From an uncultured Bacilli bacterium (GTDB lineage Bacteria > Bacillota_I > Bacilli_A > RF39 > UBA660), in NCBI GenBank assembly GCA_934101185.1, contig CAKOQD010000001.1, positions 187,336-251,335 on the forward strand: DNA of 64,000 nucleotides. Reading direction: 5' to 3'. Shown here piece by piece: positions 5,409-64,000 of this stretch. Position 1 is the first letter of the stretch; every line of letters starts with the position of its first letter. The position numbers were made by a program, and so were the translations under genes. The notes below the pieces were generated by a model. That model was not told where the DNA came from and searched no databases. It was given only the letters and a program-made list of their open reading frames with translations.

Positions 5409-5541
5409 AAGACACCTCCTTATTATATTTACGTGCCTAAATAAAAGAGTCTTTATATGCAAAGACTCCAGATACTTTATAAAAGTCCTCGGTAGGATTT
5501 ACTTCAACACCTACTGTCTTTGGCACTTAAAAATCAAATTC
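5409..5541 (-). promoter_or_regulatory. Structured rplJ 5' leader (L10-leader-like autoregulatory RNA with an attenuator hairpin)
   Basis: The minus-strand RNA has a GUGCC...GGCAC closing stem and an inner GUAGG...CCUAC stem. It also has a GAGUCUUUGCAUAUAAAGACUC hairpin (5447-5468) followed by UUUUAUUU. This position and architecture are typical of the Firmicute L10 leader. Confidence 0.55.
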
Positions 5542-21774: not shown

Positions 21775-23730
21775 ATGAAAAAAATAGCTAAAATAACATT
21801 AAAAATATTTATATATATTATTCTATTCTTTGTAATATGTAACATATTCGGATACATATACGCCCTTATAACACCAAAACTAGACATAAAAAGTGCAAAC
21901 AAATTCTACCTATATGATAATAAACAACAACTAGTATTCCAAGGAAATGGTAATGAAGAATGGATAAACTTAAATGAAATGGGAACATATATAAAAGAAG
22001 CAACAATATCAGTCGAAGATAAAAACTTTTATAAACATAAAGGATTTGACTATCTAAGAATAACAAAAGCCATGTTAGAAAACATAAAACAAAAACAAAT
22101 AGTTCAAGGAGCATCCACTATAACACAACAATATGCAAAAAATCTATTTCTAGACTTCTCAAAAAGTTGGAAAAGAAAATGGAAAGAAATGTGGATAACA
22201 TTCGAACTAGAAACCCATTATACAAAAGATGAAATACTCGAAGGCTACTTAAACACTATTAACTATGGACACGGAATGTATGGAGTAGCAAACGCTAGCA
22301 AATACTACTTTGATAAAGACGTAAAAGACTTAACATTAGCACAAGCAGCAATGCTGGCAGGAATACCAAACTCACCAGCAAACTACTCACCAAAAGACAA
22401 CTTTGAAAAATCAAAAACAAGACAAGAACTAGTATTAGAAAGAATGTATAAAAATAAATACATATCAAAAGAAGAATATCAAAGAGCCAAAAATGAAAAA
22501 ATAGAAATATCCAAAAACAACAATAAAGACAATTTAACATCCCTACTATATTACTATGATGCAACCATGGAAGAACTATATAATCTAAAAGAAATACCAA
22601 AAAGCTACTTGGAAACAAAAGGAATAAAAATATACACATCACTAGATACAAATGCCCAAAAAGCACTCGAAGAATCAAATACAAAAATAACCGAAAAAAA
22701 CTCTCAAACAGCAAAAGTCATGATGGACTCAAAAACCGGCGGAGTACTAGGATTAATCGGAGGAATTGACTATGGCTACTCACAATACAATCGTGCAACA
22801 CAAGCAAAAAGACAACCAGGTTCAACAGTAAAACCATTCTTATACTATAGAGCAATAGAAAAAGGATTTACTTCAACAACAAAATTCTTAAGTAATGAAA
22901 CAACATTCAACTTCGACAATAACAAAACTTATTCTCCAAAAAACTATGGTAATATATATGCAGGAAAAGAAATAACTCTAGCAGCGGCACTAGCATATTC
23001 TGACAACATATTCGCAGTAAAAACACACCTTTTCCTAGGACAAGACGAATTAGTAGAAACACTCAAAAAAGTAGGAATAGAAGAACAAATAAAAGAACTA
23101 CCATCCATTCCATTAGGAACATTCGAAACCAGTCCCCTAAGTCTAGCAACAGCATACTCAACCCTTGCAAATGAAGGCAAAAAAATAACAGCACACTTCA
23201 TAGAAAAAATCGAAGATATAAATGGCAATGTTTTATATGAAAAAAAATACAAAGAAGAACAAATTCTAGATTCTGCAATCACATTCATAATAAGTGAACT
23301 ATTAACAGGATCATACGACAAAGAATTAATAGACTACACTTATCCAACTTGTTATAGTATGATACCAGATCTAACAAAAAAATACGCTTTAAAAAGTGGA
23401 AGTACTGATACAGATTCGTGGATAATAGGATACACAAAAGACTACGTACTAGTATCTTGGACTGGATATGACGACAACAAAAACATAGAAAACAAAATAG
23501 TAGCAGACAATAAAAAATCATGGTCATATGCCATGGAAACATACTTAAAAGACAAAGAAAGCACATGGTATAAAATACCAAAAACAGTAATCGGAGTTCT
23601 AGTAGACCCCATAACTGGAGAACCTGCAGATCAAAACAGCAAACACAAAAAAATATTGTACTATATAAATGGTACAGAACCAAAAGGAGAAACCTATGAT
23701 AAGAAAGAAAATGAAGAAAAACGCGATTGA
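21775..23730 (+). CDS. Class A penicillin-binding protein (glycosyltransferase GT51 + transpeptidase)
   Basis: The protein has an N-terminal TM helix, GT51 motifs (EDKNFYKHKGFD, GASTITQQ), and transpeptidase motifs STVKP (SxxK) and KSGST. Confidence 0.93.
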   Translation: MKKIAKITLKIFIYIILFFVICNIFGYIYALITPKLDIKSANKFYLYDNKQQLVFQGNGNEEWINLNEMGTYIKEATISVEDKNFYKHKGFDYLRITKAMLENIKQKQIVQGASTITQQYAKNLFLDFSKSWKRKWKEMWITFELETHYTKDEILEGYLNTINYGHGMYGVANASKYYFDKDVKDLTLAQAAMLAGIPNSPANYSPKDNFEKSKTRQELVLERMYKNKYISKEEYQRAKNEKIEISKNNNKDNLTSLLYYYDATMEELYNLKEIPKSYLETKGIKIYTSLDTNAQKALEESNTKITEKNSQTAKVMMDSKTGGVLGLIGGIDYGYSQYNRATQAKRQPGSTVKPFLYYRAIEKGFTSTTKFLSNETTFNFDNNKTYSPKNYGNIYAGKEITLAAALAYSDNIFAVKTHLFLGQDELVETLKKVGIEEQIKELPSIPLGTFETSPLSLATAYSTLANEGKKITAHFIEKIEDINGNVLYEKKYKEEQILDSAITFIISELLTGSYDKELIDYTYPTCYSMIPDLTKKYALKSGSTDTDSWIIGYTKDYVLVSWTGYDDNKNIENKIVADNKKSWSYAMETYLKDKESTWYKIPKTVIGVLVDPITGEPADQNSKHKKILYYINGTEPKGETYDKKENEEKRD

Positions 23731-51458: not shown

Positions 51459-52988
51459 TTAATCAATTCGTTGAAATAAAACAAACGCCTCATTTAATTT
51501 TGTACCAGACTTATAATACCCAAATTTATCTAAACTATCAAAACTTTTAATATTTGTATTTAACTGATTAAATATTTTTTCACTAGTATCTGGCATATAT
51601 GCTTGAAGTAAAACAGCACCAAATCTAATTGATTCCACTAAATTATATAAAACTGTAGATAGTCTATTCAAACACTTTTCATCTTTAGCAAGAACCCATG
51701 GCATAGTTTCATCGATATATTTGTTACATTTTCTAAAAATATCAAAAATAGCATCTAAAGAATCAGCAACACGTAAATTATTCATTTTGTCATCGACAAT
51801 ATCTCTGCTAGATAAAACTAAATTAATTAAATCATTATCAACCTCTTCAGTTATATTTTTATTTTCAACAATACCATCAAAATATTTATTAATCATTCCA
51901 ATAGTTCTATTAACTAAATTACCGAGTACATTAGCTAAATTAGAATTAATACTATCTACAAGAAGTTCTCTAGTAAAAGTTCCATCTGATGAAAATGGCA
52001 TCTCATGAAGCATATAATATCTAACAGCATCAACTCCAAATTCATTTACTAAATCATCAGCATAAACTATGTTACCTTTACTCTTACTCATTTTATCATT
52101 TCCAAAAAGCATCCAAGGATGACCAAATATTTTCTTAGGAAGATCTAAATCGAGAGCTTTCAATATAATTGGCCAATAAATAGTATGAAACCTTAAAATG
52201 TCCTTGCCAATTACATGTACATCACAAGGCCAATATCTATTAAACATCTCATCTGAATCACCATCTGGATCATATCCAAGAAAAGTAATATAATTGGTTA
52301 AAGCATCAAGCCATACATAAACAACATGATTTTCATCAAATGAGACAGGTATTCCCCATTTAAAAGACGAACGCGAAACACATAAATCTTCAAGACCTGG
52401 TTTAATAAAATTATTTATCATTTCGTTTTTTCTAGATTCAGGTTGTATAAAATGTGGATGACTTTCAATATAATCTTCAAGCCATGAAGCATAATCGCTC
52501 ATTCTAAAGAAATAAGCCTCTTCACTAGTTTCATGCACTTCTCTACCACAATCAGGGCATTTACCATCAACTAACTGAGTTTCAGTCCAAAAAGATTCAC
52601 ATGGTGTACAATAAAGTCCTTTGTACTCACCTTTATAAATATCACCTTGATCATATAACTTTTTAAATATCTTTTGAACTTTTTCAACATGTAAAGGATC
52701 AGTAGTTCTAATAAACTTATCATAACTAGTATTCATAACATCCCAAATGTTTTTAATTTCATCAGCAACACTATCAACATATTCCTTACAAGAAACACCT
52801 GCTTCCATAGCTTTTTGTTCTATTTTTTGACCATGTTCATCTGTACCAGTTTGAAAATAAACATCATATCCGTTAAGCCTCTTATACCTAGCAATAGCAT
52901 CTGTCAAAACAATTTCATATGTATTTCCAATATGCGGTTTAGCAGAAGTATAAGCAATCGCAGTACTAATATAAAATTTTTCTTTCAT
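51459..52988 (-). CDS. metG: Methionine--tRNA ligase
   Basis: It has a HIGN motif (AKPHIGNTYE), KMSKS, and a Cys4 knuckle (CTPCE...CPDCG). The ATG at 52988 lies 6 nt after GGAGGG. Confidence 0.97.
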   Translation of the reverse strand: MKEKFYISTAIAYTSAKPHIGNTYEIVLTDAIARYKRLNGYDVYFQTGTDEHGQKIEQKAMEAGVSCKEYVDSVADEIKNIWDVMNTSYDKFIRTTDPLHVEKVQKIFKKLYDQGDIYKGEYKGLYCTPCESFWTETQLVDGKCPDCGREVHETSEEAYFFRMSDYASWLEDYIESHPHFIQPESRKNEMINNFIKPGLEDLCVSRSSFKWGIPVSFDENHVVYVWLDALTNYITFLGYDPDGDSDEMFNRYWPCDVHVIGKDILRFHTIYWPIILKALDLDLPKKIFGHPWMLFGNDKMSKSKGNIVYADDLVNEFGVDAVRYYMLHEMPFSSDGTFTRELLVDSINSNLANVLGNLVNRTIGMINKYFDGIVENKNITEEVDNDLINLVLSSRDIVDDKMNNLRVADSLDAIFDIFRKCNKYIDETMPWVLAKDEKCLNRLSTVLYNLVESIRFGAVLLQAYMPDTSEKIFNQLNTNIKSFDSLDKFGYYKSGTKLNEAFVLFQRID

Positions 52989-53007
52989 AATCATCCCTCC
53001 AATAAAT

Positions 53008-53205
53008 AAAAAACGAAATATCTCTAAGGACGAAATATTCCGTGGTACCACCTTAATTTTGCAAAATTACAAACTTATTTTTTTAACGCATCCCTGCGGG
53101 CAAAACCTGTTCCGAAAATCATACCAAACAATTTAAAATATTTGTTTTCACCAAACACAAACTCTCTACAATTTCAAAATTGTCCTAACTTTTCTTCATC
53201 ACATT
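53008..53205 (-). promoter_or_regulatory. T-box riboswitch leader (Met specifier AUG) controlling metG
   Basis: On the minus strand, stem I contains AGAGAG and a GGUGAAA distal loop, and the specifier loop reads GGU-AUG-A (AUG at 53122-53120). The T-box sequence GGUGGUACCACG lies at 53052-53041. A terminator (CGGAAUAUUU/AGAUAUUUCG) is followed by U6. Confidence 0.85.
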
Positions 53206-53213
53206 TAAATAAA

Positions 53214-60580: not shown

Positions 60581-62206
60581 CTATTTTAATTCAACAATAT
60601 CTTTACCAAATAATGAAGTGGCCAAAACATCACTATCATTATTATTAAAAGAAACATTCTCATTTGAAGAAAGATTAATATCATTATCAACGTTTTCTTC
60701 GGTAATATAACTATAAACAATTCCATTTTGAATATTTTTTATATACTCATTTTTCAGTTTATCCCAATCAGAATCATTAATAAAAACAAGTTTATAGTTA
60801 GTATTCATGACACTATTAAACACTAATTCAATACCAGAAATATTGTTATCAACATTTTTAAGAACAGAATCATATTTAACTGATAAAATCAATTCATGTT
60901 TACCAGCAACTCGTAAATTACTATCAAGTAAATAAGAAATAAACAAAGAATCTTCAGGATTAGAAACAACTTCAGAAAATAAAACCCATTTAATTTTTAA
61001 ATCATTCAAAATACTTTTATCAGCTAAAGCAAAAGCATTATTAATCCTGATATCTTTATTATAACACACTTTATAAGTTTCAACTACATTTTTAGGAACA
61101 TCATCATTCTTACTACTAGAAACAACTTTCTTTTCTAAAGTAGACAAATTATCAACATCTCGAAAATTACAAACATTTGTTTTGCTATTAAATAATTTAT
61201 TGACAATTTTAATAATTCCAACCTCAAAAATAATTTTTTTGTTACTACTTCTTTTCAGTAATATATCTAACTCATTCAGCTCAAGTATTAAACTATAAAT
61301 AGAATCAAAATCACTACTATTATGTAAGATTAAGCAAGACTTAAGATATTCCATAAAACTATCTAATAAAATAACAACATCTTTACCCGAATTTTCCAAT
61401 TCAGTTAAGAGATTCAAAATATTAGAGACATCACCATCAAAAATATAATTTGTTAAAGATTTTAAATATTCCTCATTAACAATACCTTTTAAAGTGTAAT
61501 AATCATCAACAGTAATTTTGTCAGAATAAGAAATCAATTTATCCAACATGCTAATCGAATCTCTTAAACCACCATCACTATATTTTGCAATCAACTTCAA
61601 AACTTCATCATCAATATTAATATTTTCACAATTCACAATAGACTTCAATTTATTAACAATATCATTATTTGAAATACGTTCAAAACTAAAACATTGACAT
61701 CTAGAAATAATAGTTTCTGGAATTTTATAAAATTCTGTAGTTGCTAATATAAAAATAACATGAGTTGGTGGTTCCTCAAGAGTTTTCAACAATGCATTAA
61801 AAGCTCCACTCGATAACATATGCACTTCATCAATAATATAAACTTTATACTTTGAAATACTTGGCATTAAATTAACACTATCTCTAATTTTTCTAATTTC
61901 CTCAACACCATTATTCGAAGCAGCATCAATTTCAATAATATCAGGATTATTTTTGTTATTAAAAGAAACACAACTATCACATTCATTACAAAATGTAGAT
62001 CCATTCAAATTAAAACAATTAATAGTTTTTGCAATAATTTTTGCCAAACTTGTTTTACCAGTTCCCCTCGGACCAGCAAACAAATAAGCATGAGAAACAC
62101 AATCATTAGCAATAGAATTTTTAAGTATCTTTACAATAGAGTCTTGACCAGCAACCTCATCAAAACAAGTTGGTCTATATTTTCTATACAAAGCTAAATA
62201 AGCAAT
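60581..62206 (-). CDS. dnaX: DNA polymerase III subunit gamma/tau
   Basis: It has YRKYRP, GPRGTGKT, a zinc module (C..C..C) and SRC. The ORF-track start is TTG at 62191, but the in-frame upstream codons IIAYLAL and the position of GGGGGTGA suggest an ATT start near 62206. Confidence 0.93.
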   Translation of the reverse strand: MAYLALYRKYRPTCFDEVAGQDSIVKILKNSIANDCVSHAYLFAGPRGTGKTSLAKIIAKTINCFNLNGSTFCNECDSCVSFNNKNNPDIIEIDAASNNGVEEIRKIRDSVNLMPSISKYKVYIIDEVHMLSSGAFNALLKTLEEPPTHVIFILATTEFYKIPETIISRCQCFSFERISNNDIVNKLKSIVNCENINIDDEVLKLIAKYSDGGLRDSISMLDKLISYSDKITVDDYYTLKGIVNEEYLKSLTNYIFDGDVSNILNLLTELENSGKDVVILLDSFMEYLKSCLILHNSSDFDSIYSLILELNELDILLKRSSNKKIIFEVGIIKIVNKLFNSKTNVCNFRDVDNLSTLEKKVVSSSKNDDVPKNVVETYKVCYNKDIRINNAFALADKSILNDLKIKWVLFSEVVSNPEDSLFISYLLDSNLRVAGKHELILSVKYDSVLKNVDNNISGIELVFNSVMNTNYKLVFINDSDWDKLKNEYIKNIQNGIVYSYITEENVDNDINLSSNENVSFNNNDSDVLATSLFGKDIVELK

Positions 62207-62298: not shown

Positions 62299-62314
62299 TG
62301 TTTCACGTGAAACA
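62299..62314. promoter_or_regulatory. parS: parS site 1 (ParB/Spo0J binding site, perfect)
   Basis: This is exactly TGTTTCACGTGAAACA. The palindrome extends to 62290-62323. Confidence 0.85.
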
Positions 62315-62360
62315 TTTAAAAAAATACTTATTAACAATTTGATATAACATAACTCAAAAT

Positions 62361-62376
62361 TATTTCCCGGGAAATA
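62361..62376. promoter_or_regulatory. Noc-binding site (NBS) 1, perfect consensus
   Basis: This is exactly TATTTCCCGGGAAATA. The palindrome extends to 62357-62380. Its centre lies 62 bp from parS1. Confidence 0.8.
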
Positions 62377-62480
62377 ATTTGCAAGCTAGTTTTTGTATTC
62401 ACAACACATTTTTAAGAACATAATATATTAAAAAACAAAATTCAAACATACAAATTATTACCATTATAAAAAAATATCAA

Positions 62481-62496
62481 TGTTTCACGTGAAACA
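62481..62496. promoter_or_regulatory. parS: parS site 2 (perfect)
   Basis: This is exactly TGTTTCACGTGAAACA. It has no extended palindromic arms. Confidence 0.85.
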
Positions 62497-62613
62497 TAAG
62501 ATTAGATTAAATAAAATCAAAAACAATAAGTAAACCAAAAAAAAATAAAGAATAAATAAATCATTTATTAAAAATAAATAAAACAACATAAACAAGGATC
62601 AATATTTTTTCTA

Positions 62614-62629
62614 TGTTTCACGTGAAACA
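62614..62629. promoter_or_regulatory. parS: parS site 3 (perfect)
   Basis: This is exactly TGTTTCACGTGAAACA. The palindrome extends to 62605-62638. Confidence 0.85.
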
Positions 62630-62674
62630 TAGAAAAAAACATTTATTAACAATTTGATATACATGATTCAAAAT

Positions 62675-62690
62675 TATTTCCCGGGAAATA
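62675..62690. promoter_or_regulatory. Noc-binding site (NBS) 2, perfect consensus
   Basis: This is exactly TATTTCCCGGGAAATA. The palindrome extends to 62671-62694. Its centre lies 61 bp from parS3. Confidence 0.8.
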
Positions 62691-62805
62691 ATTTACAAAC
62701 ATTTTTTTGTATTGCAAATTATTTTTTAGAATATAGAAGTAAAATACGAAATAATTATAACAATTAAGCACTTATTTTTTGGATATTAAATATTTATTGA
62801 GTTAA

Positions 62806-62821
62806 TGTTTCACGTGAAACA
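62806..62821. promoter_or_regulatory. parS: parS site 4 (perfect)
   Basis: This is exactly TGTTTCACGTGAAACA. The palindrome extends to 62794-62833 (40 bp). Confidence 0.85.
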
Positions 62822-62955
62822 TTAACTCAATAATAAATTAAGTAATAAAAATAAAATTAATAACTAAATTTATAATTACATTATTATACAAATATATTTT
62901 GCAATATAAAGCATAAATAGCACAATATTAACAAAAAAATGTTTATATTTCTTTA

Positions 62956-62971
62956 TGTTTCACGTGAAACA
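62956..62971. promoter_or_regulatory. parS: parS site 5 (perfect)
   Basis: This is exactly TGTTTCACGTGAAACA. The palindrome extends to 62950-62977. Confidence 0.85.
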
Positions 62972-63019
62972 TAAAGAGATACTACTGCTTAAATTTAATT
63001 AAATAAAAACAGTTAACAA

Positions 63020-63035
63020 TGTTTCACGTGAAACA
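63020..63035. promoter_or_regulatory. parS: parS site 6 (perfect), abutting the tadA stop codon
   Basis: This is exactly TGTTTCACGTGAAACA. The extended palindrome at 63011-63044 covers the tadA TAA (63041-63039) and is followed on the minus strand by GUUUUUAUUU. Confidence 0.85.
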
Positions 63036-63038
63036 TTG

Positions 63039-63479
63039 TTAACTTCTTATATTGCTAAAAAATTTTGACAATATATTTTTATATTTATCTACAAATTCAT
63101 TATCGTCATATTTTTTGCAATTAATACGATCATAATTACTCTTTAAATTATTTTCATACTTAGAAGAAATCAAATATCTAATATTTCTAATACGAGATTC
63201 AGCAATAGCATTCATACACATTTCACAAGGTTCTAAAGTAACATACATGGTACATTCTTCTAAAATAAATGTTTTTAAATACTTGCAAGCTTTAATAATA
63301 GCTAAAATTTCAGCATGATATATTGAGATATTTTTATTATTTTTTTTATTATATGCTTTAGCAATTACTTTATTTTTAAAAACAATAATACAACCAACTG
63401 GAACATTATTTGTTTTTGATGCTTTTCTTGCTTCTCTTATGGCTAAATCAAAATAATATTTATCGTCATTTAACAACAT
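63039..63479 (-). CDS. tadA: tRNA-specific adenosine deaminase
   Basis: It has the CDA zinc motifs HAE (IYHAEILAI) and PCEMC. I trimmed the ORF to the ATG at 63479, preceded by GGAGG. The upstream part of the tracked ORF is the SRP RNA gene. Confidence 0.9.
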   Translation of the reverse strand: MLLNDDKYYFDLAIREARKASKTNNVPVGCIIVFKNKVIAKAYNKKNNKNISIYHAEILAIIKACKYLKTFILEECTMYVTLEPCEMCMNAIAESRIRNIRYLISSKYENNLKSNYDRINCKKYDDNEFVDKYKNILSKFFSNIRS

Positions 63480-63497
63480 AAAAACCTCCAAAAAAAA

Positions 63498-63568
63498 GTG
63501 CACACACATAGAGGATCTTAAGGCTGCTATCTTCCGATCCTGACCTAATTCAACCATATGCGTTGCAC
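63498..63568 (-). ncRNA. ffs: Signal recognition particle RNA (small, 4.5S-like, about 71 nt)
   Basis: The minus-strand RNA is GUGCAACGCAUAUGGUUGAAUUAGGUCAGGAUCGGAAGAUAGCAGCCUUAAGAUCCUCUAUGUGUGUGCAC. It contains the conserved domain IV core GGUCAGG.CGGAAG..AGCAGCC with a GGAA tetraloop, its ends pair, and it is followed by a U8 run. Confidence 0.8.
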
Positions 63569-63574
63569 AAATAT

Positions 63575-63603
63575 ATATTATAATAAAACAGAAAAATAGT
63601 CAA
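63575..63603 (-). promoter_or_regulatory. SRP RNA/tadA promoter (TTGACT-17-TAATAT)
   Basis: On the minus strand, TTGACT lies at 63603-63598, followed by a 17-nt spacer and TAATAT at 63580-63575. The G at 63568 lies 7 nt downstream. Confidence 0.55.
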
Positions 63604-63607
63604 TCAA

Positions 63608-63623
63608 TGTTTCACGTGAAACA
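63608..63623. promoter_or_regulatory. parS: parS site 7 (perfect), 4 nt upstream of the SRP RNA -35 box
   Basis: This is exactly TGTTTCACGTGAAACA. The palindrome extends to 63604-63627. Confidence 0.85.
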
Positions 63624-63789
63624 TTGAAAAAATTAGTTATTAACAATTTTAATGTTTTAAAATAAATAACATCCTAAATACTGAAATAAAATAATACAAA
63701 AAAAATATTAAAATTTTAAATCAATTAACATTCATTCTAAACAATTGATACTAACAAAACCTCATTATTATAATATAAACCTTATACAT

Positions 63790-63805
63790 AGTTTCACGTG
63801 AAACA
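63790..63805. promoter_or_regulatory. parS: parS site 8 (one mismatch)
   Basis: The sequence is AGTTTCACGTGAAACA, with only position 1 deviating. Confidence 0.75.
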
Positions 63806-63883
63806 TTAAAAACAACACTTATTAACAATTTGCAAAAAATATACAAAAAATAAATAACAAACATTTGTTTATTTTTTTTATAT

Positions 63884-63905
63884 AAAAAAAAGATGCCTAA
63901 GCATC
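63884..63905 (-). terminator. Short terminator hairpin at the end of the upstream partial gene
   Basis: On the minus strand the hairpin GAUGC-UUAG-GCAUC is followed by U8. The stop codon lies in the loop. Confidence 0.4.
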
Positions 63906-64000
63906 ATTTTCATTAGATTCATTATTCTCCAAATCTTCTTCAACTTTTTCTGTTACAGTAACTGATGTAACAAATTGACCATCTTTAAGACTCATTAATC
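63897..64000 (-). CDS. 3' end of an unidentified gene (continues off the window)
   Basis: I translated this by hand as ...LMSLKDGQFVTSVTVTEKVEEDLENNESNENDA*. It is too short to identify. Confidence 0.3.
   Translation of the reverse strand, partial: LMSLKDGQFVTSVTVTEKVEEDLENNESNENDA

What the first reader, a model, noticed from the sequence alone, without database searches (positions are those of the whole stretch)
62357..62694. Two perfect Noc-binding sites interleaved with parS in a 315-bp tandem module
Seen in the sequence: TATTTCCCGGGAAATA occurs at 62361-62376 and 62675-62690, each inside a 24-bp perfect palindrome (AAATTATTTCCCGGGAAATAATTT). Each lies 61-62 bp centre-to-centre from a parS site (parS1, parS3). 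The parS-linker-NBS block is duplicated with a 315-bp period at about 80 percent identity, while both protein-site cores are 100 percent conserved. Established knowledge: this 16-mer is the published consensus NBS of the nucleoid occlusion protein Noc. Noc is a ParB paralogue, and its site differs from parS at only two positions per half-site. Both ParB and Noc are CTP-dependent clamps that load at their sites and then spread. Inference: the fixed juxtaposition of the two paralogues' loading sites suggests coordinated or competitive loading of ParB and Noc at one hub, for example a boundary or hand-off between the segregation and nucleoid-occlusion systems. I am not aware of a described composite parS/NBS module.
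Basis: partly seen in the sequence, partly recalled or inferred. Interest (0 to 1): 0.8.

Follow-up and report, generated by a model that had tools for sequence, protein, structure and literature searches.

The report
Interleaved parS and Noc-site centromere cluster
Next to the replication origin of an uncultured human-gut bacterium, loading sites for the chromosome-segregation protein ParB are interleaved with sites for its paralogue Noc; the same mixed arrangement recurs at the same locus in well over a hundred related species, whose Noc also lacks its usual membrane anchor, and I found no description of either point in the library I searched.

Summary
Two perfect Noc-binding sites (NBS, TATTTCCCGGGAAATA) lie among eight parS sites in 1.5 kb of non-coding DNA. 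This DNA lies between gyrA, the SRP-RNA gene plus tadA, and dnaX, about 9-10.5 kb from dnaA.

The genome encodes both readers in the canonical rsmG-noc-soj-spo0J operon:
- Spo0J carries the parS-type specificity residues (R..G).
- A 427-aa Noc orthologue carries the NBS-type residues (Q,K,N,R) and a Noc-type C-terminal domain.

The juxtaposition is not a private duplication:
- 116 of 119 hits from a scan of species-representative genomes are this same syntenic locus in divergent low-GC gut Bacilli.
- Several of those loci carry strictly alternating parS/NBS tandem arrays of up to 23 sites.
- In an unbiased DnaA-anchored sample, 52 of 94 NBS lie within 150 bp of a parS, against 2.9 expected.
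- Sites fall into two discrete classes with no chimeras.

Distances vary, with a roughly 10.5-bp periodicity.

[quoted passage not shown] It has a 140-250-aa disordered insert instead.

Best reading: a composite origin-proximal loading hub for two CTP-clamp paralogues. The function of the pairing is inferred, not shown. It is a new variant of known kinds, and I found no description of it in the literature searched.

The parts
62299..62314 (.). parS1, perfect TGTTTCACGTGAAACA; start of composite block copy 1
62328..62340 (+). Linker motif TTATTAACAATTT, 13 nt after parS1. It recurs at 62643-62655, 63637-63649 and 63819-63831. It is lineage-specific, found in only 6 close relatives.
   Evidence: (D1)
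62357..62380 (.). NBS1: 24-bp perfect palindrome AAATTATTTCCCGGGAAATAATTT holding the 16-bp Noc-binding consensus (62361-62376)
   Evidence: I15. The extended 24-bp consensus is conserved across species (flank A 83-90%).
62481..62496 (.). parS2, perfect
62614..62629 (.). parS3, perfect; start of composite block copy 2. It lies inside the 34-nt palindrome 62605-62638.
62671..62694 (.). NBS2: the same 24-bp palindrome (16-mer at 62675-62690)
62806..62821 (.). parS4, perfect, inside the 40-nt palindrome 62794-62833
62956..62971 (.). parS5, perfect
63020..63035 (.). parS6, perfect, inside the 34-nt palindrome 63011-63044, whose stem overlaps the last codons and stop codon of tadA and which is followed by a T run (terminator-like)
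63608..63623 (.). parS7, perfect, between the SRP-RNA gene and gyrA
63790..63805 (.). parS8, AGTTTCACGTGAAACA (1 mismatch at the outermost base)
60581..62191 (-). dnaX (context: left border of the site cluster)
63039..63479 (-). tadA (context: gene inside the cluster)
63482..63579 (-). Small SRP RNA gene (context: inside the cluster)
63897..64000 (-). 3' end of gyrA (context: right border). dnaA lies about 9 kb further right, outside the window.

Best explanation
The region is a composite, origin-proximal centromere-like hub with two kinds of loading site.

**Shown by sequence.**
- Eight parS sites and two interspersed NBS occupy the non-coding gaps gyrA | SRP-RNA gene-tadA | dnaX, about 9-10.5 kb from dnaA.
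- No other parS or NBS occurs in roughly 92 kb around oriC.
- The same genome encodes, in the operon rsmG-noc-soj-spo0J, a canonical ParB (Spo0J) and a Noc orthologue.
- Spo0J has parS-type recognition residues and the N-terminal motif RRALGIGLEELF, which I read from memory as the ParA-contact peptide.
- Noc has NBS-type recognition residues, intact CTP-binding motifs and a Noc-type C-terminal dimerisation domain.

**Inferred mechanism.** Each paralogue nucleates only on its own palindrome, closes into a CTP clamp and slides outwards. The two populations then coat the same origin-proximal kilobases and mark the origin region with both proteins at once. Arrays grow and shrink by recombination between the repeated sites.

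**Inferred function.** This clade's Noc lacks the N-terminal membrane helix and carries a long disordered linker. Its role at the hub is therefore probably not classical membrane tethering. More likely it is an origin-localised activity that works with the ParB complex. Candidates are coupling origin segregation to division-site choice or to initiation control, or adding multivalent bridging to the partition complex.
For: **Sites and position.**
- Site positions and their non-random occurrence.
- Origin context (dnaA-dnaN-comK-recF-gyrB-gyrA-[sites]-ffs-tadA-[sites]-dnaX).

**Both proteins are present.**
- rsmG, a 427-aa ParB-family protein, a 259-aa ParA and a 298-aa ParB lie in one operon.
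- The best NCBIfam match of the 427-aa protein is TIGR04285 nucleoid_noc, at 297.5 bits.
- Its best solved-structure relatives are Noc entries 7NG0, 7NFU and 7OL9, ahead of Spo0J 6SDK.
- Its C-terminal 50 residues alone match positions 205-255 of the Noc model.

**Recognition residues.**
- Noc has Q/K/N/R and Spo0J has R/I/N/G.
- Published rule: Q173 and R201 switch specificity, and K or R at 179 or 184 is permissive. R173 and G201 are invariant in ParB (PMC7383237).

**Conservation across species.**
- 116 of 119 pattern hits in species-representative genomes are the same syntenic locus, with DnaX only 37-60% identical in most.
- Relatives carry alternating tandem arrays: 83 bp x 13 copies in L078 and 125 bp x 10.7 copies in L032.
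- In the unbiased DnaA-anchored sample, 52 of 94 NBS lie within 150 bp of a parS. Random placement gives 2.9, with a maximum of 10 in 2000 simulations. 20 of 23 full-length loci have both site types in this zone.

**Two discrete readers.**
- Of 660 sites matching the degenerate pattern, 345 are pure NBS, 314 are pure parS, 1 is other, and none is a chimera.
- Paired QKxR Noc and RxxG Spo0J occur in 14 of the 33 DnaA-anchored loci analysed; 8 more carry the QKxR Noc alone.
Against: - No binding or localisation data exist, because the organisms are uncultured.
- Spacing between parS and NBS is variable, so no single rigid protein-protein geometry is implied.
- The Noc score is just under NCBIfam's curated cut-off (297.5 against 315).
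- Position 184 is N rather than K/R.
- Noc lacks the membrane-targeting helix, so its known effector mechanism cannot simply be transferred.
- Scattered single NBS also exist in relatives (33 isolated in 850 kb). The hub is therefore not Noc's only target.
- Both site types may share one intergenic 'landing pad' simply because compact genomes offer few, rather than because they interact.
- The genome-wide NBS distribution could not be measured.
Confidence: 0.7

Rival explanations
1. Co-location without interaction. Both proteins bind their own sites. The sites share this spot only because both need origin-proximal, non-coding DNA, and these compact 1.3-1.5 Mb genomes offer few such gaps. Tandem duplication then copies whatever lies there. 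Noc otherwise acts from scattered NBS as in Bacillus.
For: - Variable spacing.
- Arrays are homogeneous tandem repeats at 91-95% identity, so alternation can come from amplifying one unit.
- Isolated NBS exist elsewhere in relatives.
- In the more distant relatives L201 and L209, the NBS lies about 1.6 kb from the parS cluster rather than interleaved.
Against: - Units of different length (83, 105, 117 and 125-127 bp in the large arrays) were amplified in different lineages, always as parS plus NBS.
- 55% of NBS in an unbiased sample lie within 150 bp of a parS.
- Distances show a 10.5-bp periodicity even though the linkers are unrelated in sequence.
- The parS-to-NBS block, linker included, is 91.5% conserved in the window, against about 50% for the rest of the unit.
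Confidence: 0.17
2. One reader for both sites: a single ParB-family protein with relaxed or dual specificity binds both palindromes, and the second paralogue does something else.
For: The two sites differ at only two positions per half-site. Dual-specificity variants can be made in the laboratory (PMC7383237).
Against: - Spo0J keeps R173 and G201, and Noc keeps Q173 and R201, which are the exclusive classes in PMC7383237.
- Laboratory dual-specificity variants mostly carry T or S at position 201, which is not seen here.
- Sites are strictly binary, with no chimeric or intermediate sites among 660.
Confidence: 0.05
3. The CCCGGG palindrome belongs to an unrelated system: a transcription-factor operator, a restriction-modification target, or an RNA or DNA hairpin such as a terminator.
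For: - Palindromes in this region score as terminator-like hairpins (6 found against 0.3 expected).
- CCCGGG is, from memory, a classic restriction site.
Against: - The terminator-like calls are the parS palindromes, not the NBS.
- The conserved unit is the full NBS consensus extended to 24 bp, not just CCCGGG.
- Relatives carrying these sites also carry an NBS-type Noc: 22 of the 33 DnaA-anchored loci analysed, the others having no ParB-family gene within the 10 kb fetched.
- Rfam finds no RNA family here apart from SRP RNA.
Confidence: 0.05
4. Chance or a private duplication: an NBS look-alike that hitch-hiked in a lineage-specific 315-bp duplication.
For: The two NBS in the window lie in two copies of one repeat. 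One strain has only one copy.
Against: - The expected chance number is about 1e-5.
- The arrangement recurs in more than 100 species at the same locus, with unrelated linkers.
Confidence: 0.02

Closest known systems
Noc-NBS nucleoid occlusion system of Bacillus subtilis and Staphylococcus aureus (PMC4331003, PMC8429893, PMC5540599)
   Same: - The same 16-bp NBS consensus.
- An orthologous protein at the same operon position.
- CTP-binding NTD motifs (GERR, ENLQR), an NBS-type recognition helix and a Noc-type CTD.
   Different: - Here the NBS are packed among parS in one 1-kb origin-proximal cluster, and in relatives form arrays of up to 13. In the known systems they are scattered over the origin-proximal half or two-thirds of the chromosome.
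- The protein lacks the highly conserved 10-15-aa N-terminal amphipathic helix that B. subtilis Noc needs for membrane binding and function.
- It carries a 140-250-aa disordered insert between the DBD and the CTD.
- The NBS consensus is extended to a 24-bp palindrome.
Chromosomal ParABS centromeres with clustered parS (B. subtilis Spo0J/Soj; multi-parS clusters in other bacteria; PMC7333895)
   Same: - The consensus parS.
- An origin-proximal cluster.
- ParA and ParB encoded beside oriC.
- The expected CTP-clamp loading and spreading.
   Different: - All eight parS are consolidated in 1.5 kb of intergenic DNA.
- They are interleaved with a second paralogue's sites.
- Several parS sit inside long palindromes that may double as transcription terminators.
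MipZ-ParB of Caulobacter, and RacA-ram sites of sporulating B. subtilis (from memory; not checked here)
   Same: The logic is the same: a second factor concentrated at the origin or centromere, so that origin position informs division-site placement or anchoring.
   Different: - MipZ is a ParA-like ATPase recruited by protein-protein contact with ParB, not by its own DNA sites.
- RacA is unrelated to ParB.
- Here the second factor is a ParB paralogue with its own interleaved loading sites.

Membership tests
Noc (nucleoid occlusion protein, TIGR04285) | ParB/Srx-type N-terminal domain with CTP-binding motifs (ParB box I Q, GERR box II, ENLQR) | tested here: met
   VIQPIIV, AGERRYRA and LLENLQR are invariant in 18 clade homologues. 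The protein aligns over residues 6-206 to Noc structures 7NG0 and 7NFU.
Noc (nucleoid occlusion protein, TIGR04285) | NBS-type specificity residues: Q173 and R201, plus K or R at 179 or 184 (PMC7383237) | tested here: met
   The window species has Q, K, N, R. The 22 relatives in which a Noc-like ORF was found all have QK[NQSAGT]R. Position 184 is not K/R, but K179 satisfies the 'either position' rule.
Noc (nucleoid occlusion protein, TIGR04285) | Noc-type C-terminal dimerisation domain | tested here: met
   The C-terminal 50-60 aa of three divergent homologues match only profile positions 205-255 of TIGR04285, with E-values from 8e-7 to 5e-4. AF2 predicts a confident helix-strand-strand module at 384-423.
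Noc (nucleoid occlusion protein, TIGR04285) | N-terminal amphipathic membrane-targeting helix (aa 1-10/15), highly conserved and required for function (PMC4331003, PMC8429893) | tested here: not met
   Residue 4 of the protein aligns to residue 27 of B. subtilis Noc. No upstream in-frame ATG exists. All 16 divergent relatives have at most 14-24 aa before the PNRFQPR-type motif; one (L201) shows no ATG start at all. My recalled B. subtilis Noc sequence has about 41 aa there.
Noc (nucleoid occlusion protein, TIGR04285) | Whole-protein score above NCBIfam's curated cut-off | tested here: not met
   297.5 bits against a cut-off of 315. The match is split into two stretches by the disordered insert.
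Noc (nucleoid occlusion protein, TIGR04285) | Gene position rsmG-noc-soj-spo0J next to oriC | tested here: met
Noc (nucleoid occlusion protein, TIGR04285) | Binds NBS, spreads, tethers DNA to the membrane and blocks division over the nucleoid | not testable with these tools
   Needs ChIP, BLI, liposome and cytology experiments.
Canonical NBS distribution | Sites scattered over the origin-proximal half to two-thirds of the chromosome (PMC5540599) | tested here: inconclusive
   Only about 92 kb of this genome was readable, and all NBS there lie in the cluster. Relatives show some isolated NBS as well. No whole genome could be scanned.
Chromosomal ParABS centromere | Consensus 16-bp parS palindromes near oriC | tested here: met
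   7 perfect sites and 1 one-mismatch site, 9.06-10.56 kb from the dnaA start.
Chromosomal ParABS centromere | ParB with R173 and G201, an N-terminal ParA-contact peptide, and a ParA partner | tested here: met
   Spo0J has R, I, N, G at the four positions and the N-terminal RRALGIGLEELF motif, which I identify from memory as the ParA-contact peptide. Soj is 259 aa.

The most novel reading that the evidence does not exclude
In a large clade of uncultured, reduced-genome gut Bacilli, Noc may have been converted from a membrane-tethering nucleoid-occlusion factor into a second centromere protein. On this reading, a helix-less Noc with a long disordered linker loads at NBS interleaved with parS, preferentially about half a helical turn out of phase. 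ParB and Noc then build one mixed CTP-clamp complex at the origin, a two-paralogue 'kinetochore'. That complex would couple segregation to division-site choice or to replication initiation by a mechanism other than membrane crowding.
Probability: 0.3. Interest if true: 0.85.

Novelty: new variant of a known kind. Interest (0 to 1): 0.74.

Why it matters
ParB and Noc are the textbook example of paralogues that diverged to separate DNA sites and separate jobs: segregation for ParB, and division control by membrane tethering for Noc.

In this clade the two site types have been brought back together, and in relatives amplified as one unit. At the same time Noc has lost the element that its known mechanism depends on.

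If the proteins bind as predicted, this would be:
- a natural system for studying how two CTP-gated sliding clamps share, block or help each other on the same DNA;
- evidence that Noc has a membrane-independent function;
- a candidate minimal link between origin segregation and cell-cycle control in reduced-genome gut bacteria.

The arrays are short, defined DNA. They can be tested directly with purified proteins or in a heterologous host.

Tried and rejected
- **A ParB or Noc gene inside the window or next to the arrays.** None is present. Only one unrelated GERR-motif ORF turned up, in a 60%-GC Synergistaceae contig. The genes were found instead by walking from dnaA.
- **Promoters in the cluster.** Sigma-70-like hits do not exceed shuffled controls (23 found, 20 expected), so I make no promoter claim.
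- **Tandem Repeats Finder on the window.** It does not report the 315-bp repeat. Only the roughly 82-130-bp composite block and the parS cores are really similar.
- **The linker motif TTATTAACAATTT as a third conserved protein site.** It occurs in only 6 close relatives, so I treat it as lineage-specific.
- **The NIFDxLR motif in the Noc disordered region as a relocated membrane or partner motif.** It is conserved in the closer homologues but absent from more distant clade members. AF2 gives it only a 5-residue helix at low confidence. It remains unexplained.
- **NBS-only arrays.** L156 looked like one, but it contains AGTTTCACGTGAAACT parS variants that the one-mismatch scan missed.
- **The fixed 62-bp spacing.** Rejected.
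- **Placing the clade in GTDB order RF39.** I could not confirm this. The one paper holding both 'Onthousia' and 'RF39' did not show the passage. NCBI lists Candidatus Onthousia as Bacilli incertae sedis.

Full report
**1. What is in the window**

The 64-kb window is AT-rich (22-34% GC) and has a very strong negative GC skew. Nearly all genes lie on the minus strand, so the replication origin lies beyond its right end.

The finding sits in the last 1.7 kb. The order on the plus strand is dnaX (60581-62191, minus strand), a non-coding gap, tadA (63039-63479, minus), the small SRP RNA gene (63482-63579, minus), a second gap, and the 3' end of gyrA.

The two gaps hold eight parS sites. Seven are perfect TGTTTCACGTGAAACA and one has a single outer mismatch. 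They also hold two perfect copies of TATTTCCCGGGAAATA, at 62361-62376 and 62675-62690.

No other NBS-like site is found in the window even with three mismatches allowed. CCCGGG itself occurs only at these two places.

Each NBS lies in a perfect 24-bp palindrome, 62 or 61 bp centre-to-centre from a parS. The two parS-linker-NBS blocks recur with a 314-315-bp period.

One correction applies. The whole 315-bp unit is only 62% identical between its two copies. The 82-bp parS-to-NBS block is 91.5% identical, with its linker at 85%. The remainder is about 50% identical, close to background for this composition.

**2. Where it lies in the genome**

Contigs that encode exactly the same TadA and a 99%-identical DnaA extend the map.

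- Left of oriC: rnpA, yidC, jag, mnmE, mnmG, rsmG, a 427-aa ParB-family gene, soj and spo0J.
- Right of oriC: dnaA, dnaN, comK, recF, gyrB, gyrA, the site cluster with ffs and tadA inside it, then dnaX, ybaB, recR and holB.

The cluster lies 9.06-10.56 kb from the dnaA start codon.

About 92 kb of contiguous sequence around oriC was readable: the window plus L001 and L128. In all of it, every parS (up to 3 mismatches allowed) and every NBS (up to 3) lies in this 1.5-kb stretch.

The samples are human-gut metagenomes.

**3. Both readers are encoded, with matching specificity**

The 298-aa Spo0J starts with the RRALGIGLEELF motif, which I recognise from memory as the ParA-contact peptide. At the four specificity positions defined by Jalal et al. 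2020 it has R, I, N, G. In that paper R173 and G201 are invariant in ParB (PMC7383237).

The 427-aa protein sits in the Noc position. Its evidence is as follows.
- It scores best against NCBIfam TIGR04285 'nucleoid_noc', at 297.5 bits against a curated cut-off of 315.
- Its closest solved structures are Noc (7NG0, 7NFU, 7OL9), ahead of Spo0J 6SDK.
- In those alignments its recognition segments read GKSQSTVANKLRLLNL...ISERHARS. Noc reads GKGQSTIANKLRLLKL...ITERHARA and Spo0J reads GKSRPHIANHLRLLTL...LSMGHGRT.
- It therefore has Q173, K179, N184 and R201.
- In PMC7383237, Q173 and R201 are the specificity-switching residues, and about 91% of NBS-specific variants have K or R at position 179 or 184.
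- Its last 50 residues alone match only the C-terminal end of the Noc model.

It is thus a Noc orthologue with an NBS-type reading head. That it binds the CCCGGG palindromes is an inference from these rules, not a measurement.

**4. The juxtaposition is conserved across a large clade**

I scanned one representative genome per species for a parS core followed 31-61 bp later by an NBS core.

- Of the 119 stretches, 116 are the same syntenic locus (gyrA, tadA, dnaX, ybaB, recR, holB) in low-GC uncultured gut Bacilli. The records label them variously as Bacilli, Erysipelotrichaceae, 'Mycoplasma', Tenericutes, or as obviously mis-binned taxa.
- DnaX is only 37-60% identical to the window's in most of them.
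- Several loci carry strictly alternating arrays: 21 sites in L032, 23 in L078, 17 in L075, 14 in L091 and 12 in L008.
- Tandem Repeats Finder describes L078 as an 83-bp unit x 13.2 copies at 95% identity. It describes L032 as a 125-bp unit x 10.7 copies at 91%. Each unit holds one parS and one NBS.
- Unit lengths differ between species, so composite units were probably amplified several times.

That sample was chosen for having a pair, so I drew a second one blind to the sites. It holds 80 metagenome loci anchored on DnaA, at 98-49% identity, with 10-kb flanks.

- 52 of 94 NBS lie within 150 bp of a parS. Random placement gives 2.9, with a maximum of 10 in 2000 trials.
- 20 of 23 full-length loci carry both site types in the zone more than 8 kb downstream of dnaA. 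None has parS only.
- In 14 of the 33 loci analysed, a long Noc (399-514 aa) with QK[NQSAGT]R is paired with a Spo0J carrying R[IMT][NTS]G (one truncated copy shows only R, I, N); 8 further loci show the QKxR Noc alone.
- In the most distant members (L201, L209) the parS cluster is at the same locus, but the NBS lies about 1.6 kb away. Tight interleaving therefore characterises a subclade.

**5. Two discrete site classes**

Among 660 sites in the 119 loci that fit T[GA]TTTC[AC]CG[TG]GAAA[CT]A, 345 are NBS on both halves and 314 are parS on both halves. One has another combination, and none is a parS/NBS chimera.

This is what two exclusive readers predict. It argues against a single relaxed reader.

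The NBS consensus extends to AAAtTATTTCCCGGGAAATAaTTT, with flanking A at 83-90% against a background of about 37%. parS has a conserved A at -1 (96%).

**6. Spacing**

The 62-bp distance is not conserved. Adjacent parS-NBS start-to-start distances range from 18 to about 120 bp.

I counted each distance once per locus, then collapsed loci whose linkers are at least 60% identical. The distribution peaks near 25, 36-38, 47-48, 57-58 and 67-69 bp, with troughs between the peaks.
- The Rayleigh statistic is largest at a 10.5-bp period (R = 0.26, n = 270, nominal p about 1e-8).
- The phase is about 4.7 bp, roughly n + 0.45 helical turns.
- Linkers of equal length are mostly unrelated in sequence: median identity 0.38-0.44, against 0.34-0.40 after shuffling.

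This hints that neighbouring sites prefer opposite faces of the helix. The species are not independent and the first sample was length-selected, so I treat it as a lead only. The window's own 61-62 bp falls in a trough.

**7. Dynamics**

A strain with a 99%-identical DnaA (L125) has one composite module (6 parS, 1 NBS) where the window and other strains have two.

The junction has the left flank of parS3 and the right flank of parS1. The exchange therefore occurred within the parS core.

Arrays evidently expand and contract by recombination between the repeated sites.

**8. The clade's Noc is unusual**

Residue 4 aligns to residue 27 of B. subtilis Noc. The upstream frame has no ATG.

In 16 divergent relatives, at most 14-24 residues precede the PNRFQPR-type motif, and one (L201) shows no ATG start at all. 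My recalled B. subtilis Noc sequence has about 41 residues there.

The N-terminal amphipathic helix is therefore missing.
- Adams et al. describe that helix as extremely conserved and predicted in all homologues they examined.
- They found NocNdelta10 to be non-functional (PMC4331003).
- Jalal et al. show that the helix is the CTP-regulated membrane switch (PMC8429893).

Between the DNA-binding domain and the C-terminal domain lies a Q/P/E/N-rich insert of 139-254 aa, variable in length and sequence.

AlphaFold2 models residues 1-205 and 382-427 confidently. It gives pLDDT below 50 for 208-281 and 289-381.

A short NIFDxLR motif inside the insert is conserved in the closer homologues but not clade-wide.

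**9. Interpretation**

Shown by sequence:
- a conserved, origin-proximal cluster in which the loading sites of two ParB-family paralogues are interleaved;
- both paralogues encoded nearby, with matching specificity residues;
- two discrete site classes;
- repeated amplification of composite units;
- a Noc without its membrane helix.

Inferred from the established biochemistry of ParB and Noc (CTP-gated clamps that nucleate on the palindrome and slide for kilobases): both proteins load here and coat the same origin-proximal DNA.

The purpose of the pairing is not established. Classical membrane crowding is unlikely without the helix. Candidates are:
- an origin-anchored signal for division placement;
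- control of initiation, as reported for S. aureus Noc, whose binding spans 8-10 kb around a site (PMC5540599). A similar span here would come close to oriC, about 7.5-9 kb from the array;
- multivalent bridging within the partition complex through the long disordered linker.

The main rival is co-location without interaction, in a rare permissive intergenic gap.

**10. Novelty**

The searches returned the core Noc and ParB literature, but no paper describing composite or alternating parS/NBS arrays, or a helix-less Noc.

The library does not cover subscription journals, so absence is not proof.

I rate this as a new variant of known kinds (ParABS centromere, Noc-NBS). It is of clear interest to the chromosome-segregation field and directly testable with short DNA and two purified proteins.

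Noticed in passing
L126:1203-2486 (minus strand); same protein as P0121: [quoted passage not shown] It has a roughly 170-aa disordered Q/P/E/N-rich insert with an internal near-repeat. It also carries a short conserved motif, NIFDxLR, which AF2 models as a 5-residue helix at 285-289. The insert is clade-wide (139-254 aa). The motif occurs only in the closer homologues.
   Followed up: partly
window 63011-63044, 62794-62833, 62605-62638: Several parS cores sit inside 34-40-nt near-perfect palindromes followed by T runs, and these score as intrinsic terminators (6 found against 0.3 expected). The stem of the one at 63011-63044 overlaps the end of tadA, stop codon included. parS may therefore double as a bidirectional terminator hairpin.
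   Followed up: partly
window 62328-62340, 62643-62655, 63637-63649, 63819-63831: The motif TTATTAACAATTT lies 13-15 nt after four of the eight parS. It recurs at the same offset in only 6 closely related species. Its function is unknown. It resembles a degenerate DnaA box, but I did not test this.
   Followed up: partly
L125:19990-20357 versus L126:19990-20680: Strain polymorphism: one composite module in L125, two in L126. The recombination junction lies inside the parS core (left flank of parS3 joined to right flank of parS1).
   Followed up: yes
L006-L124 and L130-L209 (site clusters): Adjacent parS-NBS distances across species show a periodicity of about 10.5 bp, with peaks near 25, 37, 47.5, 57.5 and 68 bp (roughly n + 0.45 turns). 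The linkers are unrelated in sequence. The window's 61-62 bp is off-peak. Phylogenetic non-independence has not been fully controlled.
   Followed up: partly
L078:4442-5534; L032:2363-3702; L156:18950-19220: Relatives carry highly homogeneous tandem arrays in which each unit holds one parS and one NBS: 83 bp x 13 copies, 125 bp x 10.7 copies, and 82 bp x 4 copies. Some use the outer-base parS variant AGTTTCACGTGAAACT.
   Followed up: yes
L001:3402-3857 (outside the window, between dnaN and recF): A ComK-family gene sits between dnaN and recF in the origin region. It is conserved in at least 21 of the related loci.
   Followed up: no
window 1-64000: The window shows extreme strand bias. Nearly all ORFs of 100 aa or more that look like genes lie on the minus strand, and GC skew is -0.26 to -0.47 throughout. 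It dips to -0.12 around 22-24 kb, where the one long plus-strand ORF (21775-23730) lies.
   Followed up: no
window 53023-53208 and 5432-5541: Rfam finds a T-box leader at 53023-53208 that overlaps the listed GTG start of ORF 51459-53051 by about 29 nt, so the true start is probably further downstream. It also finds a ribosomal L10 leader at 5432-5541. Both are otherwise ordinary.
   Followed up: no
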